Source: a virus
Lineage: Duplodnaviria > Caudoviricetes
Length of the DNA stretch: 64,000 bases
Strand: one strand, 5' to 3'
IMG/VR virus record: IMGVR_UViG_3300029319_000001
The notes below the pieces were generated by a model. It did no database searches, was not told the origin of the DNA, and was given only the letters and a program-made list of their open reading frames with translations. Of the stretch, positions 6,294-19,655 are shown piece by piece. Positions within the stretch are counted from its first letter, which is position 1; every line of letters begins with the position of its first letter. A program made the position numbers and the translations under genes.

Positions 6294-6893
6294 ATGTCAA
6301 TTTATCCTTTGAGTCCATCCCCTAATTTTCAGGGTGAGACACTATATCAAACATGGGAAGATGGGTTCACCCCAAACGAGTGCCATCGTATTATTAACTA
6401 TGGTGAGTCTCTTTCACCAAAACCTGCTACAGTCGGTAATAATATTGATACCAATGTAGTAAATAGTATTCGCACATCTAAGACTGCATGGTTAGAATGC
6501 AATAATGATACAAAATGGTTATATGAGCGTTTAGGTAATATATTAAGAGTAACTAATGGTATGTTCTGGAAGTTTGATATCCGTGGATTTCATGAGCATA
6601 TTCAATACACAGTATATGAAGGAGACGATCAAGGCTTTTATAGGTGGCATGTAGATAATAATATGCAGTCAGATGTACCACCGAGAAAATTAAGTATGAC
6701 CGTACAATTATCTGATCCCAGTGAATATACTGGTGGTGAATTACAGTTGCATGATGGTGAAGTACAGACTGCAGTAAATAGTAGAGGACATGTAATAATA
6801 TTTCCCAGTTATGCTTTACATAGGGTTCAACCTGTAACATCTGGAATTAGAAGAAGTTTGGTAGTCTGGGCAAATGGTCCTGCATTCAAGTGA
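6294..6893 (+). CDS. 2OG-Fe(II) oxygenase (prolyl-4-hydroxylase/PKHD-like)
   Basis: WHVD (HxD), RKLSMTVQL..YTGGEL, HRVQPV (distal His) and RRSLVVW (2OG-binding Arg). Confidence 0.9.
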   Translation: MSIYPLSPSPNFQGETLYQTWEDGFTPNECHRIINYGESLSPKPATVGNNIDTNVVNSIRTSKTAWLECNNDTKWLYERLGNILRVTNGMFWKFDIRGFHEHIQYTVYEGDDQGFYRWHVDNNMQSDVPPRKLSMTVQLSDPSEYTGGELQLHDGEVQTAVNSRGHVIIFPSYALHRVQPVTSGIRRSLVVWANGPAFK

Positions 6894-6895
6894 CA

Positions 6896-6950
6896 GACAG
6901 TGATTTAAGTGTCTACTACATCCCCATTGTGAGGTAAAATGGTGTATAAT
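6896..6950 (+). promoter_or_regulatory. Box A plus -10 element (early-type promoter)
   Basis: GACAGTGATTTAAGTGTCTAC at 6896-6916; TATAAT at 6945-6950, 28 bp downstream. Confidence 0.7.
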
Positions 6951-8120
6951 ATAGGTATGAAGAATACCCATCTTGAACACTTAGAAGATGACATCCTCAA
7001 CAGTGGTGCTGTTGGTGGATTCAATGTCGTTTCTGTACTCAGATCATTTGGTAATATGCTCACAGGCACTAAGTCTGATCTAAGTGTTACTACTAAGTGG
7101 GATGGAGCTCCTGCAATTATTTGTGGCACTGACCCTGTTACTGGTAAATTCTTTGTTGGAACTAAATCAGTATTCAATAAGATTACACCTAAAGTATGTT
7201 ATGATAATGTTGATGTTGATCGTTTTTATGAGTCAGAAGTACTTCGTGCAAAGTTAAAAGATTGTCTTAAGTATCTCTCTCAATTAAATATCAAAGGTAT
7301 TATTCAAGGAGATTTATTATTCTCATCAGGAGACAAGAGATATGCTAGTATTGGTGGACACAGAGTTATTACATTTAATCCTAATGCCATAACTTATGCA
7401 GTATCGTGTCAATCAAGTCAAGGTATGGCAGTAGAGAGAGCAAATATTGGTATTGTATTTCATACAGTATATCAAGGTAGTTCAATACAAGATTGCAAGG
7501 CAGTATATAAAGCACCCTTATTTGTAGGCACAGAAGATATATTCATACCTAATGCTAATTTCAATGATGCTAAAGGTATAAGTCGTTTCAGTAATAGTCA
7601 GAAGATCAAGTATATTGCTACTATTAATCGTGCGGAGGGTTCACTCAAGAGAGCATCAAGATTTCTTGATATCATGCAAAGTCATGGTCAATCTAGATTC
7701 TTAATGCCAACATTATTCAAGCAATTCTTTAATACACAAATTCGTACTGGTAAGACTATTGTAAACACTAGAAGAACAGTTGCACAGTTTGCTAAGTTTT
7801 ATTCAGACAGATTAGATGCTGAGATCAATACTAAAACCAGTGTCAAGGGCAAAGAGAGATACAAGAGGATGAAGGCAGAAGGTCTTAATTTTATTGCTAG
7901 GTATGAGAATGAGATATATTTTACATTTGCATCATATATTTCTATTCGTGATGCTAAGAAGATGGTAATCTCACAATTAAACAAGGTTGGTCAAATAAGA
8001 ACATACATAGGAAATACACCAACAAATCCAGAGGGATATGTTGTTTCCACCAACAACTACGCAATGAAGTTTGTTGATGATGACTTTAGAAAAGCAAACA
8101 TTCTCTTTGGAATACAATGA
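6939..8120 (+). CDS. Conserved T4-like phage protein (DUF6267-like) with ligase-type nucleotidyltransferase motifs; start probably at MKNTH (6957)
   Basis: MKNTHLEHLED N-terminus; TKWDG (motif I KxDG), IQGDLLF (III), PEGYVV (IV), MKFV (V). The annotated 6939 start overlaps the -10 element. Confidence 0.7.
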   Translation: MVYNIGMKNTHLEHLEDDILNSGAVGGFNVVSVLRSFGNMLTGTKSDLSVTTKWDGAPAIICGTDPVTGKFFVGTKSVFNKITPKVCYDNVDVDRFYESEVLRAKLKDCLKYLSQLNIKGIIQGDLLFSSGDKRYASIGGHRVITFNPNAITYAVSCQSSQGMAVERANIGIVFHTVYQGSSIQDCKAVYKAPLFVGTEDIFIPNANFNDAKGISRFSNSQKIKYIATINRAEGSLKRASRFLDIMQSHGQSRFLMPTLFKQFFNTQIRTGKTIVNTRRTVAQFAKFYSDRLDAEINTKTSVKGKERYKRMKAEGLNFIARYENEIYFTFASYISIRDAKKMVISQLNKVGQIRTYIGNTPTNPEGYVVSTNNYAMKFVDDDFRKANILFGIQ

Positions 8121-9424
8121 AAAAGATCGCTGTTATCGGTGCAGGTGTTATTGGTATTACTTCTATTCTACAGTTGATAGAACAGCGAACTAATCTTAAT
8201 GCAGAAAATGATTGTAAAATAGTATGGTTATATGACACATCAATAGATATATTTGGTATTGGAGAGTCAACAACACCATCATTATCAGGACAAATTGCTA
8301 GTCCACCATCATATTTGAGATATGATTCTAAAGATTATTTTGATGCTACTATCAAGTTTGGTAATAGATTTGTAGGATGGGGTAAAAATGGTGGAGATTT
8401 TACCAGATACTTTCCTATGAGTACTGCTGCTATTCATTTTGATACTAGATTATTCAGTAGTTTCTTTATTGAACATCTAAATGAAGAGAGTTGTTATAAT
8501 TTTGAGTCAAGAGATACTAAAATAAAATCAATAAGTTTCGATCAAGACCCTATAGGTGGACATTGCTTTGGTGTTGTTATTGATGGAGAGTCATTTGATT
8601 TTGTATTAGATTGTAGTGGTGGCAAATCACTGGTGAATGATGATTATTATTTCGATTCACCCTTTGAGACTTGTAACACAGTTCTTGCTACTAGACTACC
8701 AGAACCTGCAGATTGGGGTTATACATTAACACAGACCACTCGAAATGGTTGGATGTTTGGAATTCCATTGCAAAGCAGAAGAACTTATGGTTATGCTTAT
8801 AATTCAAGTGTTACAACAGAAGAGGAGGCACAGCAAGATTTTAGAAGTCTAGTTCCTCAAGAAGGACATCAATATAATAAGTTTACTTGGAAACCTAAAT
8901 TCTCAAACTATGTGTTACATCATAGTGGTAGATATGCTCGTAATGGAAATGCGTTAGGATTTCTTGACCCACTTGAAGCACTAGCAGGTATGTATTATGA
9001 TAGTGTGACAGATAAGATGTCAAATTATGCTCTTGGCGATACATATAATAACATAGAACTGATTAATGATATCAATAGTTGGTATTATCAAGAAGTTATT
9101 GGGGATTGGTTATTAAATTCTGCATGGATGTATCATTTTGGTTCAGAACATGACACCCCATTCTGGCAACAAGTCCAGAAAAATGCTAAAGATATATTAA
9201 ATAATAAGGAGATTAATCCTTGTCGTTTAATAAGTGATGAACAAACATTTACTGATGATTTGTTCAATATTATAGGGGATGACCCAGAAATGAGAAGGTT
9301 ATTTGTTCATGATCTACTTGATGTTGAGTTTACTTTCGATTTCTGTCGTGATTATTATAACTTCAGTTCATTTACTAGAGGAATGAGTGCAGATTATGCC
9401 AACAAGTTTCCTACATTTACATAA
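8117..9424 (+). CDS. Flavin-dependent (tryptophan-halogenase-like) protein
   Basis: IAVIGAGVIG (GxGxxG), GIGEST, ATIKFG (position of catalytic Lys), GWMFGIPL (WxWxIP variant), GNALGFLDPLE. Confidence 0.85.
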   Translation: MKKIAVIGAGVIGITSILQLIEQRTNLNAENDCKIVWLYDTSIDIFGIGESTTPSLSGQIASPPSYLRYDSKDYFDATIKFGNRFVGWGKNGGDFTRYFPMSTAAIHFDTRLFSSFFIEHLNEESCYNFESRDTKIKSISFDQDPIGGHCFGVVIDGESFDFVLDCSGGKSLVNDDYYFDSPFETCNTVLATRLPEPADWGYTLTQTTRNGWMFGIPLQSRRTYGYAYNSSVTTEEEAQQDFRSLVPQEGHQYNKFTWKPKFSNYVLHHSGRYARNGNALGFLDPLEALAGMYYDSVTDKMSNYALGDTYNNIELINDINSWYYQEVIGDWLLNSAWMYHFGSEHDTPFWQQVQKNAKDILNNKEINPCRLISDEQTFTDDLFNIIGDDPEMRRLFVHDLLDVEFTFDFCRDYYNFSSFTRGMSADYANKFPTFT

Positions 9425-9427
9425 CTT

Positions 9428-17053: not shown

Positions 17054-17241
17054 TGGCATTAAAGATGGACAAAGACCTTAAAAAGTTGATGAAAAAGTAT
17101 GATTTCAAACTTGAAAAGGTTGGCAAACACTATACTTGGCATGGGGCAAATGGTGCTATAATAGTAACATCCAAAACACCAGGAAAAGCAAGATATCTCA
17201 AGGAGATAGAATGCAACATTCGTAAACAACTCAGCAATTAA
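17053..17241 (+). CDS. HicA-like (dsRBD-fold) protein
   Basis: LKKLMKKYDFKLEKVGKHYTW...GAIIVTSKTP pattern with GKH His; 62 aa, basic. Confidence 0.6.
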   Translation: MALKMDKDLKKLMKKYDFKLEKVGKHYTWHGANGAIIVTSKTPGKARYLKEIECNIRKQLSN

Positions 17242-17245
17242 TCTC

Positions 17246-17464
17246 ATGAACAAAAAGCAATTTTTCCCATCACATTCTGAATCTATCGATGTAGGATATA
17301 TGACCTACCTTGATTTACTAACAGAGTTACAAAATTTAGATGAAGATAGACTTTTAGATGTTGTTACGGTCTATGATACACTAGACGATGTATTTTTACC
17401 AGTTGGTAGGATTATAACAAATAATCATAATGAGAAGATCGGAAGCACATGTTTAGAGGTATGA
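17246..17464 (+). CDS. Hypothetical early protein
   Basis: MTYLDLLTELQNLDEDRL..VTVYD pattern. Confidence 0.65.
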   Translation: MNKKQFFPSHSESIDVGYMTYLDLLTELQNLDEDRLLDVVTVYDTLDDVFLPVGRIITNNHNEKIGSTCLEV

Positions 17465-17518
17465 CAGTTTAATTAGTGTCTACAAATGCATGTTTTTGGT
17501 CAGATCATTTATTATAAT
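17463..17518 (+). promoter_or_regulatory. Box E plus -10
   Basis: GACAGTTTAATTAGTGTCTAC at 17463-17483; TATAAT at 17513-17518 (29 bp gap). Confidence 0.8.
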
Positions 17519-17525
17519 AGATGTA

Positions 17526-17598
17526 TAGGACAGAGGAAAGGTTTACGCCCCAACCGAGATAATTTCAAAGGAAAGGTTACCGCCCCAACCGAGTCCTA
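17526..17598 (+). ncRNA. Putative small structured RNA or 5' leader with two tandem hairpins
   Basis: TAGGAC/GTCCTA closing stem encloses two 25-bp repeats AGGAAAGGTT(TA/AC)CGCCCCAACCGAG at 17534-17558 and 17569-17593. Confidence 0.55.
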
Positions 17599-17625
17599 AA
17601 ATCTATTCAATTTAATTCAAAAACT

Positions 17626-17814
17626 ATGCGAAAAGGATTAAACATCGAAGTCACTAACTCTCAATATGACTTCCTTTATGACCTCGTGATGATGGCATAT
17701 GAGTTAGATATCCCAGAGCAAAAAGGTTGGGATATGCAAACTTTCGACAATCTTGTTGATAATGTATGCCAAGCAACAGAGACTAATTTATCAAACAATG
17801 TAAGAGGAGTTTAA
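17626..17814 (+). CDS. Hypothetical early protein
   Basis: ORF track; follows promoter E. Confidence 0.7.
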   Translation: MRKGLNIEVTNSQYDFLYDLVMMAYELDIPEQKGWDMQTFDNLVDNVCQATETNLSNNVRGV

Positions 17815-17815
17815 A

Positions 17816-18010
17816 ATGAATTACAGAATGACTAAAAAACAAGCAGTTCAGCAATTTAGATGGGATTGGTCAGATTTTGTACAAAGCAATCCATCATATA
17901 GAGGAGACAGTATTGCTAAACGATGTGCATTTAACGATTATGTTGACTCACTCAATAAAGACGGATTAGTAACAGATTATCAAGCATACAACTGGAGCAA
18001 CCCATTCTAA
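17816..18010 (+). CDS. Hypothetical early protein
   Basis: GAGGAG RBS; DSIAKRCAFNDYVDSLNKDGLVTDYQAYNWSNPF motif. Confidence 0.75.
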   Translation: MNYRMTKKQAVQQFRWDWSDFVQSNPSYRGDSIAKRCAFNDYVDSLNKDGLVTDYQAYNWSNPF

Positions 18011-18156
18011 TGAACATTCAAGAAGAAATCTTTGACCAAATCGAAGAACTAAACACTAGTTTAAGAGAATTAAATGATGGCGATTTAGTAGAATGTAGAT
18101 CAGCATTAATTGATCGCACTAACATAATCATGCAACTATTAGAGGAACTTTCATGA
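18010..18156 (+). CDS. Hypothetical 48-aa acidic protein (not in ORF track)
   Basis: TAATG and ATGA overlaps on both sides. Confidence 0.6.
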   Translation: MNIQEEIFDQIEELNTSLRELNDGDLVECRSALIDRTNIIMQLLEELS

Positions 18157-18413
18157 AATTCTATAATGTACAATCTAGAATAACCAAGGATAACCCAGTT
18201 CAATCAGAACATTTTGGTAGGCATTTTTGGTTAGATGATGAGCAAGAATTGATGAGTTGCCCATCATTCAACGATGATACCGCAGATTTTAACAATGCTG
18301 ATTATGTATCAGAGTGGACAGACCTCGAAGGTTTAGACCTAGGAAAATTGTTAGAAGTTTATAAAACTCTCATCAATCATGATAATTATATTGATGAACT
18401 AAGCAATGTGTAA
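18153..18413 (+). CDS. Hypothetical acidic early protein
   Basis: ORF track; overlap packing. Confidence 0.7.
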   Translation: MKFYNVQSRITKDNPVQSEHFGRHFWLDDEQELMSCPSFNDDTADFNNADYVSEWTDLEGLDLGKLLEVYKTLINHDNYIDELSNV

Positions 18414-18591
18414 ACAATTTATTAACCCTAAAATCATGAAACTAAAACCAAAAACAATTAAAGTAGAATTCACATTTGATGAATTATATCAAATGAACAA
18501 ATTGTATGAGACAATGTTAGATATGGATATGACAGAAGACCTACCCAAGGAAATTGAAACTAGTTTTGATAAAATTCGAGAGGCAAAGTAG
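18406..18591 (+). CDS. Hypothetical early protein
   Basis: ORF track; ends at box F. Confidence 0.6.
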   Translation: MCKQFINPKIMKLKPKTIKVEFTFDELYQMNKLYETMLDMDMTEDLPKEIETSFDKIREAK

Positions 18592-18646
18592 ACAGTTTAA
18601 TTAGTGTCTACTCATGCCTGTTTTTGGTATCATTATCCATTATAAT
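18591..18646 (+). promoter_or_regulatory. Box F plus -10
   Basis: GACAGTTTAATTAGTGTCTAC at 18591-18611, identical to box E; TATAAT at 18641-18646. Confidence 0.8.
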
Positions 18647-18674
18647 AGTAGTATAAACAAAGGAAATCGAAATT

Positions 18675-18893
18675 ATGAACAAAACTCAAACAGTTATGAA
18701 CCGAATCGTACAAGTTGACAACTTTCAGAATATGGCATGTTGTTGTGCAAACTGGGCAGAGTTCGTACAAGAATTAGCAGAGTGGGGTGTTGACGGTTGT
18801 GCTAAGATAGATTTTGATGATGCTGACCTAGATGTTGCTAGACTAGATGCTTTCATACATGCAGAAAACGGATATGTAAGGGAGGTTGCATAA
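18675..18893 (+). CDS. Hypothetical acidic early protein
   Basis: First ORF after promoter F. Confidence 0.75.
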   Translation: MNKTQTVMNRIVQVDNFQNMACCCANWAEFVQELAEWGVDGCAKIDFDDADLDVARLDAFIHAENGYVREVA

Positions 18894-19201
18894 TGCCATT
18901 TGACCATACATCACCCTATACAGAGTATAATGATCTAATGAGAAAAGCAAAGCAATTAGAACTAGAGAGTCAACTAAAGGAACTAAAAGCAATCCAACTT
19001 GACAATTTCAAAAGAGAACCGAATCATCCTAGAAACAAATTTGATTATGCTATCATAGTTCCAAATCATCCCCTAGGATATCATGAACACTATTGTATGG
19101 ACTTAGAAGTTGCAAAGCAATCGGCAAGAGAGTGGTCAGCAGATTATGGTCGAGTATCTGTAGAAGACAAAAACCTAAACACAGTTTACGCTATTTTTTA
19201 A
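18893..19201 (+). CDS. Hypothetical early protein
   Basis: TAATG overlap. Confidence 0.7.
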   Translation: MPFDHTSPYTEYNDLMRKAKQLELESQLKELKAIQLDNFKREPNHPRNKFDYAIIVPNHPLGYHEHYCMDLEVAKQSAREWSADYGRVSVEDKNLNTVYAIF

Positions 19202-19203
19202 TC

Positions 19204-19401
19204 ATGACAGAACAACAATCACTAGAGTGGGATGCCAAAATAGTTATGGAACAAATACACATGGCAGAGTCTAGGCATATGCAGATGGGGGCATTATGTT
19301 CCTATCTACTTCAATATCCTGATATGACAATCAGAGACTTTTTTACAATGTCAGCAAAAGAGATCAGAGAAGAAGAGGAGGAACTAGGTTATTATGAGTA
19401 A
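19204..19401 (+). CDS. Hypothetical early protein (start MTEQQ)
   Basis: 3' part of track ORF 19093..19401; avoids overlap with the upstream gene. Confidence 0.65.
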   Translation: MTEQQSLEWDAKIVMEQIHMAESRHMQMGALCSYLLQYPDMTIRDFFTMSAKEIREEEEELGYYE

Positions 19402-19576
19402 TATACAAAACGAGATCATACTTGAAAATCTATATGATGAAGTATGGATAGAATATAGAGACAAGAATAATTTAACTGATGACCAGTTATATGCACTTGA
19501 GCAAAATTCTATTAATGGTATTATACCAGAGATAGAAGCAGAAACTACCAGAAGATTTGATGATATGTGCCAATAA
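19394..19576 (+). CDS. Hypothetical acidic early protein
   Basis: NEIILENLYDEV pattern; ends at box G. Confidence 0.7.
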   Translation: MSNIQNEIILENLYDEVWIEYRDKNNLTDDQLYALEQNSINGIIPEIEAETTRRFDDMCQ

Positions 19577-19625
19577 TATTAGTGTCACAACAAAACCCCA
19601 TTCGGGGTTTTTTATTGGTTATAAT
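19569..19625 (+). promoter_or_regulatory. Box G plus extended -10
   Basis: GCCAATAATATTAGTGTCAC at 19569-19588; TATAAT at 19620-19625. Confidence 0.65.
19592..19613 (+). terminator. Intrinsic terminator embedded in promoter G
   Basis: AAAACCCC-ATTC-GGGGTTTT followed by Ts. Confidence 0.7.
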
Positions 19626-19655
19626 AAGAGTAACAAACAAACACAGGTAACACAC

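What the first reader, a model, noticed from the sequence alone, without database searches (positions are those of the whole stretch)
6896..19625. A repeated pseudo-palindromic ~20-bp box at a fixed distance upstream of eight -10 elements
Seen: boxes at 6896, 11902, 12223, 13746, 15527, 17463, 18591 and 19569 share G(A/C)CA(G/A)T-N7-(AG/AC)TG-x-C(Y)AC. One is a perfect inverted repeat (TGACAGTT-N4-AACTGTCA). Each lies 28-31 bp upstream of a TATAAT-like hexamer, and most lack a good -35. This is class II activator geometry. Inference: a dedicated regulon in which a dimeric host or phage factor replaces -35 recognition, functionally replacing the T4 MotA/AsiA middle system. I recall similar motifs noted upstream of early genes in other cyanomyoviruses (unverified); the binding factor is unknown to me.
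Basis: partly seen in the sequence, partly recalled or inferred. Interest (0 to 1): 0.75.

Follow-up and report, generated by a model that had tools for sequence, protein, structure and literature searches.

The report
Cyanophage early-gene promoter cassettes
Eight small-gene units of this T4-like cyanophage each start with the same promoter cassette (a two-fold symmetric box exactly 50 bases before a -10 element), which is the early-gene promoter type shared by these phages and copies a site that the host's only GntR-type regulator binds in its own small-RNA promoters.

Summary
All eight boxes exist, all on the + strand. Each starts 49-51 nt before a -10-like hexamer, and a purine follows 7 nt after the hexamer. 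A matrix trained only on other phage contigs refinds 7 of 8 (8 hits against 0.23 expected).

The same cassette occurs in Syn9, P-TIM40, P-SSM2, S-PM2, P-HM2 and freshwater S-CRM01. It is absent from T4. In P-HM2, 5 of 6 genome-wide cassette hits precede genes of the earliest published expression cluster. These are therefore early promoters, not a MotA/AsiA-like middle system.

The box centre lies near -53.5, so this is not class II geometry. There is no conserved -35. In 3 of 8 cases the gap holds the terminator of the preceding unit.

This is very probably the early-gene element reported for Syn9 and P-TIM40 in 2016. I could not read that paper.

The scan has found this cassette before on other phage DNA. 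Those notes named a host PlmA-type GntR regulator, and I tested that lead. Host yfr2 sRNA promoters, which PMM1637 binds and activates, carry the same half-site at the same distance (motif r = 0.83). Binding to the phage box is untested.

The parts
6896..6916 (+). Box 1 (GACAGTGATTTAAGTGTCTAC). It starts 3 nt after the stop codon of the 2OG-Fe(II) oxygenase gene (6294-6893).
6945..6957 (+). -10 TATAAT (6945-6950) and predicted start A at 6957. That A is the A of the ATG of the DUF6267 gene, so the mRNA may be leaderless.
11902..11922 (+). Box 2. It overlaps the end of ORF 11692-11913.
11952..11964 (+). -10 TATATT (11952-11957) and predicted start G at 11964. This is the only cassette with a fair -35 (TTGCAA, 17 nt spacing). 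About 300 nt without an ORF follow.
12222..12243 (+). Box 3, a perfect palindrome TGACAGTT-AAAA-AACTGTCA.
12243..12270 (+). Intrinsic-terminator-like hairpin (9 pairs) plus T-run, lying between box 3 and its -10.
12273..12285 (+). -10 CATAAT (12273-12278) and predicted start A at 12285, before ORF 12300-12533.
13746..13766 (+). Box 4, the weakest copy (right half GTGAAT). It lies before the helicase gene.
   Evidence: Syn9 orthologue
13796..13808 (+). -10 TATACT (13796-13801) and predicted start A at 13808.
15527..15547 (+). Box 5 (GACAGTTGATAAAGAGGCACA).
15547..15574 (+). Terminator-like hairpin (9 pairs) plus T-run between box 5 and its -10.
15578..15590 (+). -10 TATACT (15578-15583) and predicted start A at 15590, before the DUF7717 gene (ATG 15610).
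17463..17483 (+). Box 6. It overlaps the stop codon of ORF 17246-17464.
17513..17525 (+). -10 TATAAT (17513-17518) and predicted start A at 17525.
18588..18611 (+). Box 7 with full 7-nt arms (GTAGACA-N10-TGTCTAC). It overlaps the stop codon of ORF 18406-18591.
18641..18653 (+). -10 TATAAT (18641-18646) and predicted start A at 18653, before ORF 18675-18893.
19569..19589 (+). Box 8 (GCCAAT...AGTGTCACA variant).
19592..19617 (+). Terminator-like hairpin (8 pairs) plus T-run between box 8 and its -10.
19620..19632 (+). -10 TATAAT (19620-19625) and predicted start A at 19632, before the Kyano_Gp96-family gene (ATG 19656).

Best explanation
These are eight copies of the early-gene promoter cassette of T4-like cyanophages (Kyanoviridae).

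Anatomy. Each cassette has a -10 hexamer, a start purine 7 nt later (usually followed by T) and no conserved -35. Exactly 50 +/- 1 nt before the -10 lies an 18-24-bp two-fold symmetric box, (t)G[A/C]CA[G/C]TT-N4-AA[G/C]TG[T/G]C(AC), centred near -53.5. In 3 of 8 copies here, and in about half elsewhere, the space between box and -10 holds the intrinsic terminator of the preceding unit. Each small-gene group is thereby insulated.

Proposed mechanism (inferred). Host sigma-70-type RNA polymerase uses the -10. A dimeric protein already present when the DNA enters binds the box and recruits the polymerase from just upstream of the -35 position. The best candidate is the host's single GntR-family regulator (PlmA type; PMM1637 in Prochlorococcus MED4). 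That regulator binds and activates host yfr2 sRNA promoters, which carry the same half-site at the same distance from their -10. The phage box looks like a symmetric, perfected copy of that host site.

Shown here: the anatomy, its conservation, the early timing in a related phage, and the motif and spacing match to yfr2 promoters.
Inferred: the transcription starts in this window, activation through the box, and the identity of the factor.
For: Anatomy and significance in the window.

Conservation:
- 92 of 114 exact-pattern hits in viral contigs have a -10 at offset 49-51.
- A further 124 independent sites give the consensus, a start purine 7 nt after the -10, and no -35.
- Counts of box plus -10 against a reversed-pattern control: P-TIM40 9:0, P-SSM2 8:0, S-PM2 6:0, S-CRM01 15:0, T4 0:0.
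- Syn9 sites lie before gp61, gp68, gp73, gp75 and gp150.
- A 44-kb close relative keeps 7 of the 8 boxes.

Early timing. In P-HM2 only 21 of 242 genes are in the earliest cluster A (Thompson et al. 2016, PMC5082946, S2 Table).
- 5 of 6 genome-wide cassette hits precede cluster-A genes, as do 8 of 9 matrix hits.
- These include PHM2_135, which with PHM2_136 forms the only early locus outside the 36-41 kb block.

Host factor:
- PMM1637 was pulled down on the yfr2 promoter. It shifts the yfr2 and yfr4 promoters, an R50A mutant does not, and it raises reporter expression in E. coli. The motif is palindromic, 21-22 nt long, and starts 55-57 nt upstream of the start (Lambrecht et al. 2018, PMC6191309).
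- In 47 yfr2 promoters found with Rfam RF01701, the phage matrix's best hit falls within one 8-nt window in 42.
- The commonest 7-mer, found without any phage input, is GACAGTT. The de novo host motif is TGTGaCAGTTgAaaaActGacC.
- It correlates with the phage box at r = 0.83 in one register, with 0 of 2000 column shuffles reaching this.
- The distance from host box to -10 peaks at 49-51 nt, in 29 of 42 promoters.
- Five cyanomyoviruses encode no GntR domain. Five host genomes each encode exactly one.
Against: - No transcription start was mapped for this window. Laying the Syn9 infection RNA-seq contigs could not show starts.
- No binding of any protein to a phage box has been shown.
- The right half-site is degenerate in host yfr2 promoters. 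The published CGRE1 is drawn from about -57 to -36, which overlaps the phage box (-65 to -42) but is not identical to it. I could not see the published logo.
- yfr2 induction by PMM1637 is tied to nitrogen starvation and high light. Phage early genes fire in replete cultures.
- The host-derived matrix alone is weak. Its top scores in the window are within the range of shuffles, although 7 of its 23 hits at 10 bits or more fall on the boxes.
- An activator centred near -53 is unusual for CRP-type proteins.
- The identity with the element of Doron et al. 2016 rests on my memory of its abstract. The paper is not held.
Confidence: 0.6

Rival explanations
1. The box is read by a phage protein, not a host one. 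This would be either a protein injected with the DNA or a very early phage product. The likeness to yfr2 promoters would then be mimicry without shared binding, or competition for the site.
For: - The strong symmetric form of the box is almost confined to phage DNA. The strict cassette pattern gives 1 hit in 301 host-family genomes, and the relaxed box gives 9 hits in 151 against 19 for the control.
- T4 injects transcription modifiers with its DNA (established knowledge).
- The first expression time point is 30 min, so it cannot exclude a requirement for a phage product.
Against: - No GntR-type domain is found in five cyanomyovirus genomes. No candidate DNA-binding protein was identified.
- The same half-site at the same spacing in host yfr2 promoters, which a host protein does bind, is most simply explained by shared recognition.
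Confidence: 0.15
2. The box is an operator for shut-off. The promoters fire on their -10 alone, and a repressor binding the box later turns early genes off.
For: - Early transcripts in P-HM2 peak by 1.5 h and then fall.
- Palindromic 18-24-bp sites are typical operators.
- GntR-family proteins are often repressors (established knowledge).
Against: - A site ending at -42 does not overlap the -35 or -10 region that repressors usually occlude.
- Promoters with a -10 only and no -35 generally need an activator (cyanobacterial type 2 promoters, established knowledge).
- PMM1637 raised, not lowered, expression from the yfr2 promoter.
Confidence: 0.1
3. The conserved cassette matters mainly as a recombination module, like the PeSL promoter/stem-loop cassettes of other T4-like phages. 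It would provide short homologies that shuffle small genes in the variable region.
For: - The architecture is the same: stop codon of the upstream gene, promoter elements and a stem-loop placed between them, clustered among small ORFs (Arbiol et al. 2010, PMC2839356; Comeau et al. 2014, PMC4122927).
- Boxes 6 and 7 share 21 identical bases.
- Near-identical cassettes recur across many contigs.
Against: - Selection acts on specific box positions and on exact spacing to the -10, while the intervening sequence is free. This points to protein recognition and promoter function.
- The recombination role is not exclusive of the promoter role, and it was not tested here.
Confidence: 0.08
4. The box acts in RNA. 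It would be a hairpin at the 3' end of the upstream transcript, just before the terminator, serving in processing or stability.
For: The box lies upstream of the embedded terminator, so it is transcribed from the preceding unit. It can form a 6-7-bp hairpin.
Against: - The variable pair of positions (5 and 14) forms a standard pair in only about 43% of 124 independent sites, close to the 39% expected from independent halves. G-G and C-C combinations are common.
- Sequence, not pairing, is conserved.
- The fixed register is to the downstream -10, not to the upstream stop codon.
Confidence: 0.03

Closest known systems
Early-gene regulatory element of T4-like cyanophages (Doron et al. 2016, ISME J 10:1437; Syn9 and P-TIM40)
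   Same: - It sits upstream of early genes, is not a host-like -35/-10 promoter, and is conserved and abundant among T4-like cyanophages.
- Syn9 and P-TIM40 both carry the cassette in their small-ORF regions.
- In P-HM2 it marks the earliest expression cluster.
   Different: None known. However, the paper is not held. Identity of the published logo with this box rests on my memory of the abstract and on inference. The embedded terminators and the link to a host regulator may not be in that paper.
CGRE1, the PMM1637 (PlmA-type GntR) responsive element of yfr2 sRNA promoters in Prochlorococcus and marine Synechococcus (Lambrecht et al. 2018, PMC6191309)
   Same: - Same half-site (GTG[A/C]CAGTT), same register between halves, same distance to the -10 (49-51 nt), and no -35.
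- It is palindromic and is reported to start 55-57 nt upstream of the start.
   Different: - The host right half is degenerate, while the phage box is symmetric and stronger.
- The published motif is drawn about 5 nt further downstream, reaching about -36.
- Binding of PMM1637 to a phage box is untested.
- Some Synechococcus yfr2 promoters also carry the two half-sites in the opposite arrangement, between -35 and -10.
PeSL (promoter-early stem-loop) cassettes of RB49/phi1, T4/PST and KVP40/nt-1 (Arbiol et al. 2010; Comeau et al. 2014)
   Same: It is a composite early promoter plus terminator stem-loop, with the stem-loop often placed between the upstream element and the -10. It sits between small ORFs of the variable regions.
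   Different: PeSLs use a sigma-70 -35/-10 pair. Here there is no -35 but a distal palindromic box. Only 3 of 8 copies have the stem-loop. Recombination at these cassettes was not tested.
Class II activator-dependent promoters (CRP/FNR family; NtcA in cyanobacteria, GTA-N8-TAC at -41.5)
   Same: A -10 without a -35, plus a dimer-type palindrome upstream.
   Different: The centre is at about -53.5, not -41.5. The sequence is not GTA-N8-TAC: in box 7 the GTA and TAC are 18 nt apart.
T4 middle promoters (MotA box at -30 with MotA and AsiA)
   Same: Both are a phage-specific promoter class lacking a -35.
   Different: The timing is early, not middle. The box differs in sequence and position. T4 has no copy of the cassette. 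Cyanophages lack motA and asiA, as stated in PMC5780444.

Membership tests
Early-gene regulatory element of T4-like cyanophages (Doron et al. 2016) | Lies directly upstream of genes of the earliest expression class | tested here: met
   Tested by proxy in P-HM2. 5 of 6 genome-wide cassette hits and 8 of 9 matrix hits precede cluster-A (early) genes, which are 21 of 242 genes. No expression data exist for this window's own phage.
Early-gene regulatory element of T4-like cyanophages (Doron et al. 2016) | Present in Syn9 and P-TIM40 and conserved among T4-like cyanophages and marine viral metagenomes | tested here: met
   Syn9. P-TIM40, P-SSM2, S-PM2 and S-CRM01. IMG/VR contigs.
Early-gene regulatory element of T4-like cyanophages (Doron et al. 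2016) | Not a host-like -35/-10 promoter | tested here: met
   No conserved -35. Sigma-70-type matches in the region are not above shuffles, 79 against 75.5.
Early-gene regulatory element of T4-like cyanophages (Doron et al. 2016) | Sequence identity with the published motif logo and mapped starts | not testable with these tools
   The paper is not held in the library. RNA-seq contigs cannot show starts.
CGRE1 / PMM1637 (PlmA-type GntR) regulated promoters | Palindromic motif of about 21-22 nt starting 55-57 nt upstream of the start, with no -35 | tested here: met
   The GTT of the left half-site lies at about -58, and the box spans -62 to -42.
CGRE1 / PMM1637 (PlmA-type GntR) regulated promoters | Sequence likeness to yfr2 promoter motifs | tested here: met
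   - De novo host motif against phage box: r = 0.83, 0 of 2000 shuffles.
- The phage matrix hits one 8-nt window in 42 of 47 yfr2 promoters.
- Same distance to the -10.
- The host right half is degenerate.
CGRE1 / PMM1637 (PlmA-type GntR) regulated promoters | Bound and activated by the GntR-family regulator | not testable with these tools
   This needs EMSA or a reporter assay with a phage box. Only the presence of one GntR gene per host genome and none in the phages was shown.
PeSL cassettes of T4-like phages | Strong sigma-70 -35/-10 early promoter | tested here: not met
   The -10 is present. The -35 is absent in 7 of 8 cassettes.
PeSL cassettes of T4-like phages | Terminator stem-loop inside or next to the promoter, between small ORFs of variable regions | tested here: met
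   3 of 8 here. 54 of 124 independent sites have a hairpin of -8 kcal/mol or stronger.
PeSL cassettes of T4-like phages | Mediates recombination, indels or mini-circles | not tested
   No breakpoint analysis was done.
Class II (CRP/FNR/NtcA-type) activator-dependent promoter | Dimer site centred at -41.5, overlapping the -35 position | tested here: not met
   The centre is at -52.5 to -54.5. In S-CRM01 a TTGACT -35 lies downstream of the box.
T4 MotA/AsiA middle promoter | MotA box near -30 and middle timing | tested here: not met
   The sequence and position differ. The cassette is absent from T4. Timing is early in P-HM2.

The most novel reading that the evidence does not exclude
T4-like cyanophages start infection by borrowing the host's PII-PipX-linked GntR regulator (PlmA/PMM1637). 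Their early promoters would carry a perfected, symmetric copy of the site this regulator uses at yfr2 sRNA promoters. Early phage transcription would then need no phage protein and would be coupled to the host's nitrogen, carbon and light status. The rare host-genome copies of the cassette (beside an integrase and in low-G+C islands) would be island or satellite genes wired to the same signal.
Probability: 0.4. Interest if true: 0.75.

Novelty: new member of a known kind. Interest (0 to 1): 0.5.

Why it matters
T4-like cyanophages kill a large share of the ocean's main photosynthetic bacteria. They lack the MotA/AsiA system that times T4 transcription. How their early genes are switched on, and by what protein, is as far as I know still open.

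This window adds eight further copies of an element of known kind, which is ordinary in itself. The value lies in what the comparison gives:
- exact geometry (box centre near -53.5, not class II);
- embedded terminators that make each unit self-contained;
- independent expression evidence for early timing;
- a named, purifiable host protein that can be tested on the box in a simple gel-shift or reporter assay.

If that protein is the factor, early infection would be tied to the host's nutrient sensing.

Tried and rejected
- Doron et al. 2016 could not be read, by DOI or by PMC id. Ten literature searches found no open paper that prints its early motif. Sullivan et al. 2010 predicted only sigma-70, late, Pho and NtcA promoters.
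- My first pattern used the wrong spacer (N7) and found none of the eight boxes.
- RNA runs. The window's own stretch is held only in small shares of metatranscriptomes. I laid four 2015 Syn9 infection RNA-seq runs on the Syn9 early region instead. They are kept as contigs that span the whole region, so no starts or ends could be read. This is neither for nor against.
- No whole genome is held for the window. The nearest record is a 44-kb fragment.
- Host regulon with the strong phage consensus: not found in the genomes searched.
  - Strict cassette: 1 hit in 301 genomes, about 20 for the control.
  - Relaxed box: 9 hits in 151 genomes, 19 for the control.
  - Relaxed cassette: 6 hits in 4 of 401 genomes.
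- NtcA (GTA-N8-TAC), a LexA-like site and RpaB HLR1 direct repeats were considered. I rejected them by reading the box and from what I recall of those sites.
- No Rfam family matches anywhere in the window.
- Steglich et al. 2008 reports no Yfr2-5 response to infection by the podovirus P-SSP7 in the passages shown. This is not informative for T4-like phages.
- The host-derived matrix alone does not separate the boxes from shuffle-level scores. Only the overlap of its hits with the boxes is informative.
Full report
**What the window is.** The window has 35% G+C and carries T4-type structural genes (gp6-like, neck protein, gp15). It also has tryptophan halogenases, 2OG-Fe(II) oxygenases, a helicase and a run of very small ORFs. 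Its DNA matches only cyanomyoviruses of Prochlorococcus and Synechococcus, and only in patches. No whole genome is held. The nearest record is a 44-kb viral contig. The finding lies in the small-ORF variable region, which is syntenic with Syn9 gp40-gp90.

**Checking the observation.**
- The core is GACAGT-N6-AGTGTC. The spacer is 6 nt, not 7. It is extended in the best copies to GTAGACA-N10-TGTCTAC.
- 12222-12241 is a perfect palindrome.
- Every box is followed by a -10-like hexamer that starts 49-51 nt after its first G.
- A purine lies 7 nt after the hexamer in all eight, followed by T in seven.
- A degenerate pattern gives 6 hits against 0.34 expected.

To avoid circularity I built a matrix from 124 sites in other viral contigs. 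None of these was selected by the search pattern. The matrix scores 7 of the 8 boxes at 12 bits or more with a correctly placed -10. That makes 8 such hits observed against 0.23 in Markov shuffles. The eighth box (13746) is degenerate. It sits before the same helicase gene that has a strong box in Syn9. None of the eight has a -35 with 5 of 6 matches. Sigma-70-type promoter matches in the region are not enriched, at 79 against 75.5.

- With the start 7 nt after the -10, the box spans about -62 to -42 and its centre is at -52.5 to -54.5. This is not class II geometry.
- In the freshwater phage S-CRM01 several cassettes keep a TTGACT -35 at 17-nt spacing downstream of the box. The box therefore lies next to the -35 position, not on it.
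- In three cassettes (12223, 15527, 19569) the interval holds a 8-9-bp G+C hairpin and a T-run. These are the three best + strand terminator calls of the region.
- Across other contigs the hairpin is present in most exact-pattern hits, and 54 of 124 independent sites have one of -8 kcal/mol or stronger.
- The cassette is thus a terminator for the preceding unit fused to a promoter for the next. This is the architecture described as PeSL in other T4-like phages, but with a distal palindrome instead of a -35.
- Both asymmetric forms of the box (G..G and C..C at positions 5 and 14) occur in the same orientation to the -10. Those positions show no covariation. This fits a symmetric protein dimer and argues against an RNA hairpin.

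**Distribution.**
- Of 114 usable exact-pattern matches in IMG/VR, 92 have the -10 at the right offset.
- Counts of box plus -10 against the reversed control are 9:0 in P-TIM40, 8:0 in P-SSM2, 6:0 in S-PM2, 15:0 in S-CRM01 and 0:0 in T4.
- Syn9 has it before gp61, gp68, gp73, gp75 (helicase), gp78/79, gp89/90, gp150 and others.

**Timing.** No transcript data exist for this phage. For P-HM2, Thompson et al. 2016 (PMC5082946, S2 Table) place 21 of 242 genes in the earliest cluster. Those genes are high at 30 min.
- The whole-genome pattern search finds six cassettes in P-HM2. Five precede cluster-A genes (PHM2_060, 064, 066, 068, 135) and one precedes an early-middle gene.
- The matrix scan adds three more, before PHM2_057 and 061.
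- The only early locus outside the 36-41 kb block, PHM2_135-136, has its own cassette at 125045.

So the cassette marks early genes. I recall that Doron et al. 2016 reported a novel element controlling early genes of Syn9 and P-TIM40, host-like promoters for middle genes, and wide conservation of both. The cassette fits that description. The paper is not held, so identity is inferred.

**What reads the box.**
- Five cyanomyovirus genomes encode no GntR-type domain.
- The strong phage consensus is nearly absent from 150-400 genomes of the host family.

Earlier notes of this scan on other cyanophages named a host PlmA-type GntR regulator, and I tested that lead. Lambrecht et al. 2018 (PMC6191309) reported the following:
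- PMM1637 is pulled down by the yfr2 sRNA promoter.
- It shifts the yfr2 and yfr4 promoters, and an R50A mutant does not.
- It raises reporter expression in E. coli.
- The motif is palindromic, 21-22 nt long, and starts 55-57 nt upstream of the start.

I located 47 distinct yfr2 promoters with Rfam RF01701 in host-family genomes.
- Without any phage input, their commonest 7-mer is GACAGTT. It is concentrated at one position.
- An EM motif search gives TGTGaCAGTTgAaaaActGacC.
- This aligns with the phage box in a single register at r = 0.83, with 0 of 2000 column shuffles reaching that value.
- The phage matrix puts its best hit within one 8-nt window in 42 of 47 promoters.
- The distance from the host box to the -10 peaks at 49-51 nt.
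- Each of five host genomes has exactly one GntR-family gene, of about 335 codons.

The phage box is therefore a symmetric, stronger version of the host element, at the same place in the promoter. Binding and activation at the phage box remain untested. The caveats are listed under evidence against.

**Verdict.** It is wrong on geometry and on the analogy to T4 middle transcription. The element is of a known kind, and the scan has met it repeatedly on other phage DNA. The eight copies here are new members. The open and testable point is the factor.

Noticed in passing
window 6945-6960: The predicted start of cassette 1 (6957) is the A of the ATG that best fits the DUF6267 gene; the Pfam match begins two codons later. 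This 393-codon gene, which leads the halogenase operon, may be translated from a leaderless mRNA.
   Followed up: partly
window 11964-12270: Cassette 2 is followed by about 300 nt without an ORF of 40 codons. The stretch ends at the terminator embedded in cassette 3. No Rfam family matches. This is a candidate early phage non-coding RNA, also noted by other readers.
   Followed up: partly
L216/L220 (G037:C1:114044 and 128258-128314); L219 (G376:C1:130814-130868): The few host-genome copies of the full cassette lie in regions of lower G+C. In G037 one sits between a tRNA-like stretch and a 427-codon integrase-like ORF, with a second copy 14 kb away. In G376 the copy has a phage-like start region and small ORFs. 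These may be island or satellite genes carrying the phage early signal.
   Followed up: partly
L237, L238, L263, L270 (marine Synechococcus yfr2 promoters): Besides the box at about -60, these promoters carry CAACTGGCAC-a-GTGCCAGTTG between the -35 and -10 positions. These are the same two half-sites in the opposite arrangement. The published paper mentions one yfr2 promoter with the motif at -20.
   Followed up: no
W06 (S-CRM01), e.g. 127444-127499, 139432-139487, 149104-149159: In this freshwater cyanomyovirus several cassettes combine the box with a consensus-like TTGACT -35 at 17-nt spacing. Three of them share nearly the same interval sequence.
   Followed up: no
window 14861-14881: A box-like site (ACCAGTTATCGAAATGGCACA, 14.3 bits) lies inside the 3' part of the helicase gene, with no -10 at the usual distance.
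   Followed up: no
G002, G003, G004 (marine Synechococcus genomes): With one mismatch allowed, the box pattern occurs 8-11 times per genome against 37-56 for the reversed control pattern. This may be depletion of the site in hosts or an effect of codon usage on the control.
   Followed up: no
window 17463-17483 and 18591-18611: Boxes 6 and 7 are identical over 21 bases. Their intervals are also alike (TGCATGTTTTTGGT / TGCCTGTTTTTGGT), which suggests a recent duplication or exchange of the cassette.
   Followed up: no
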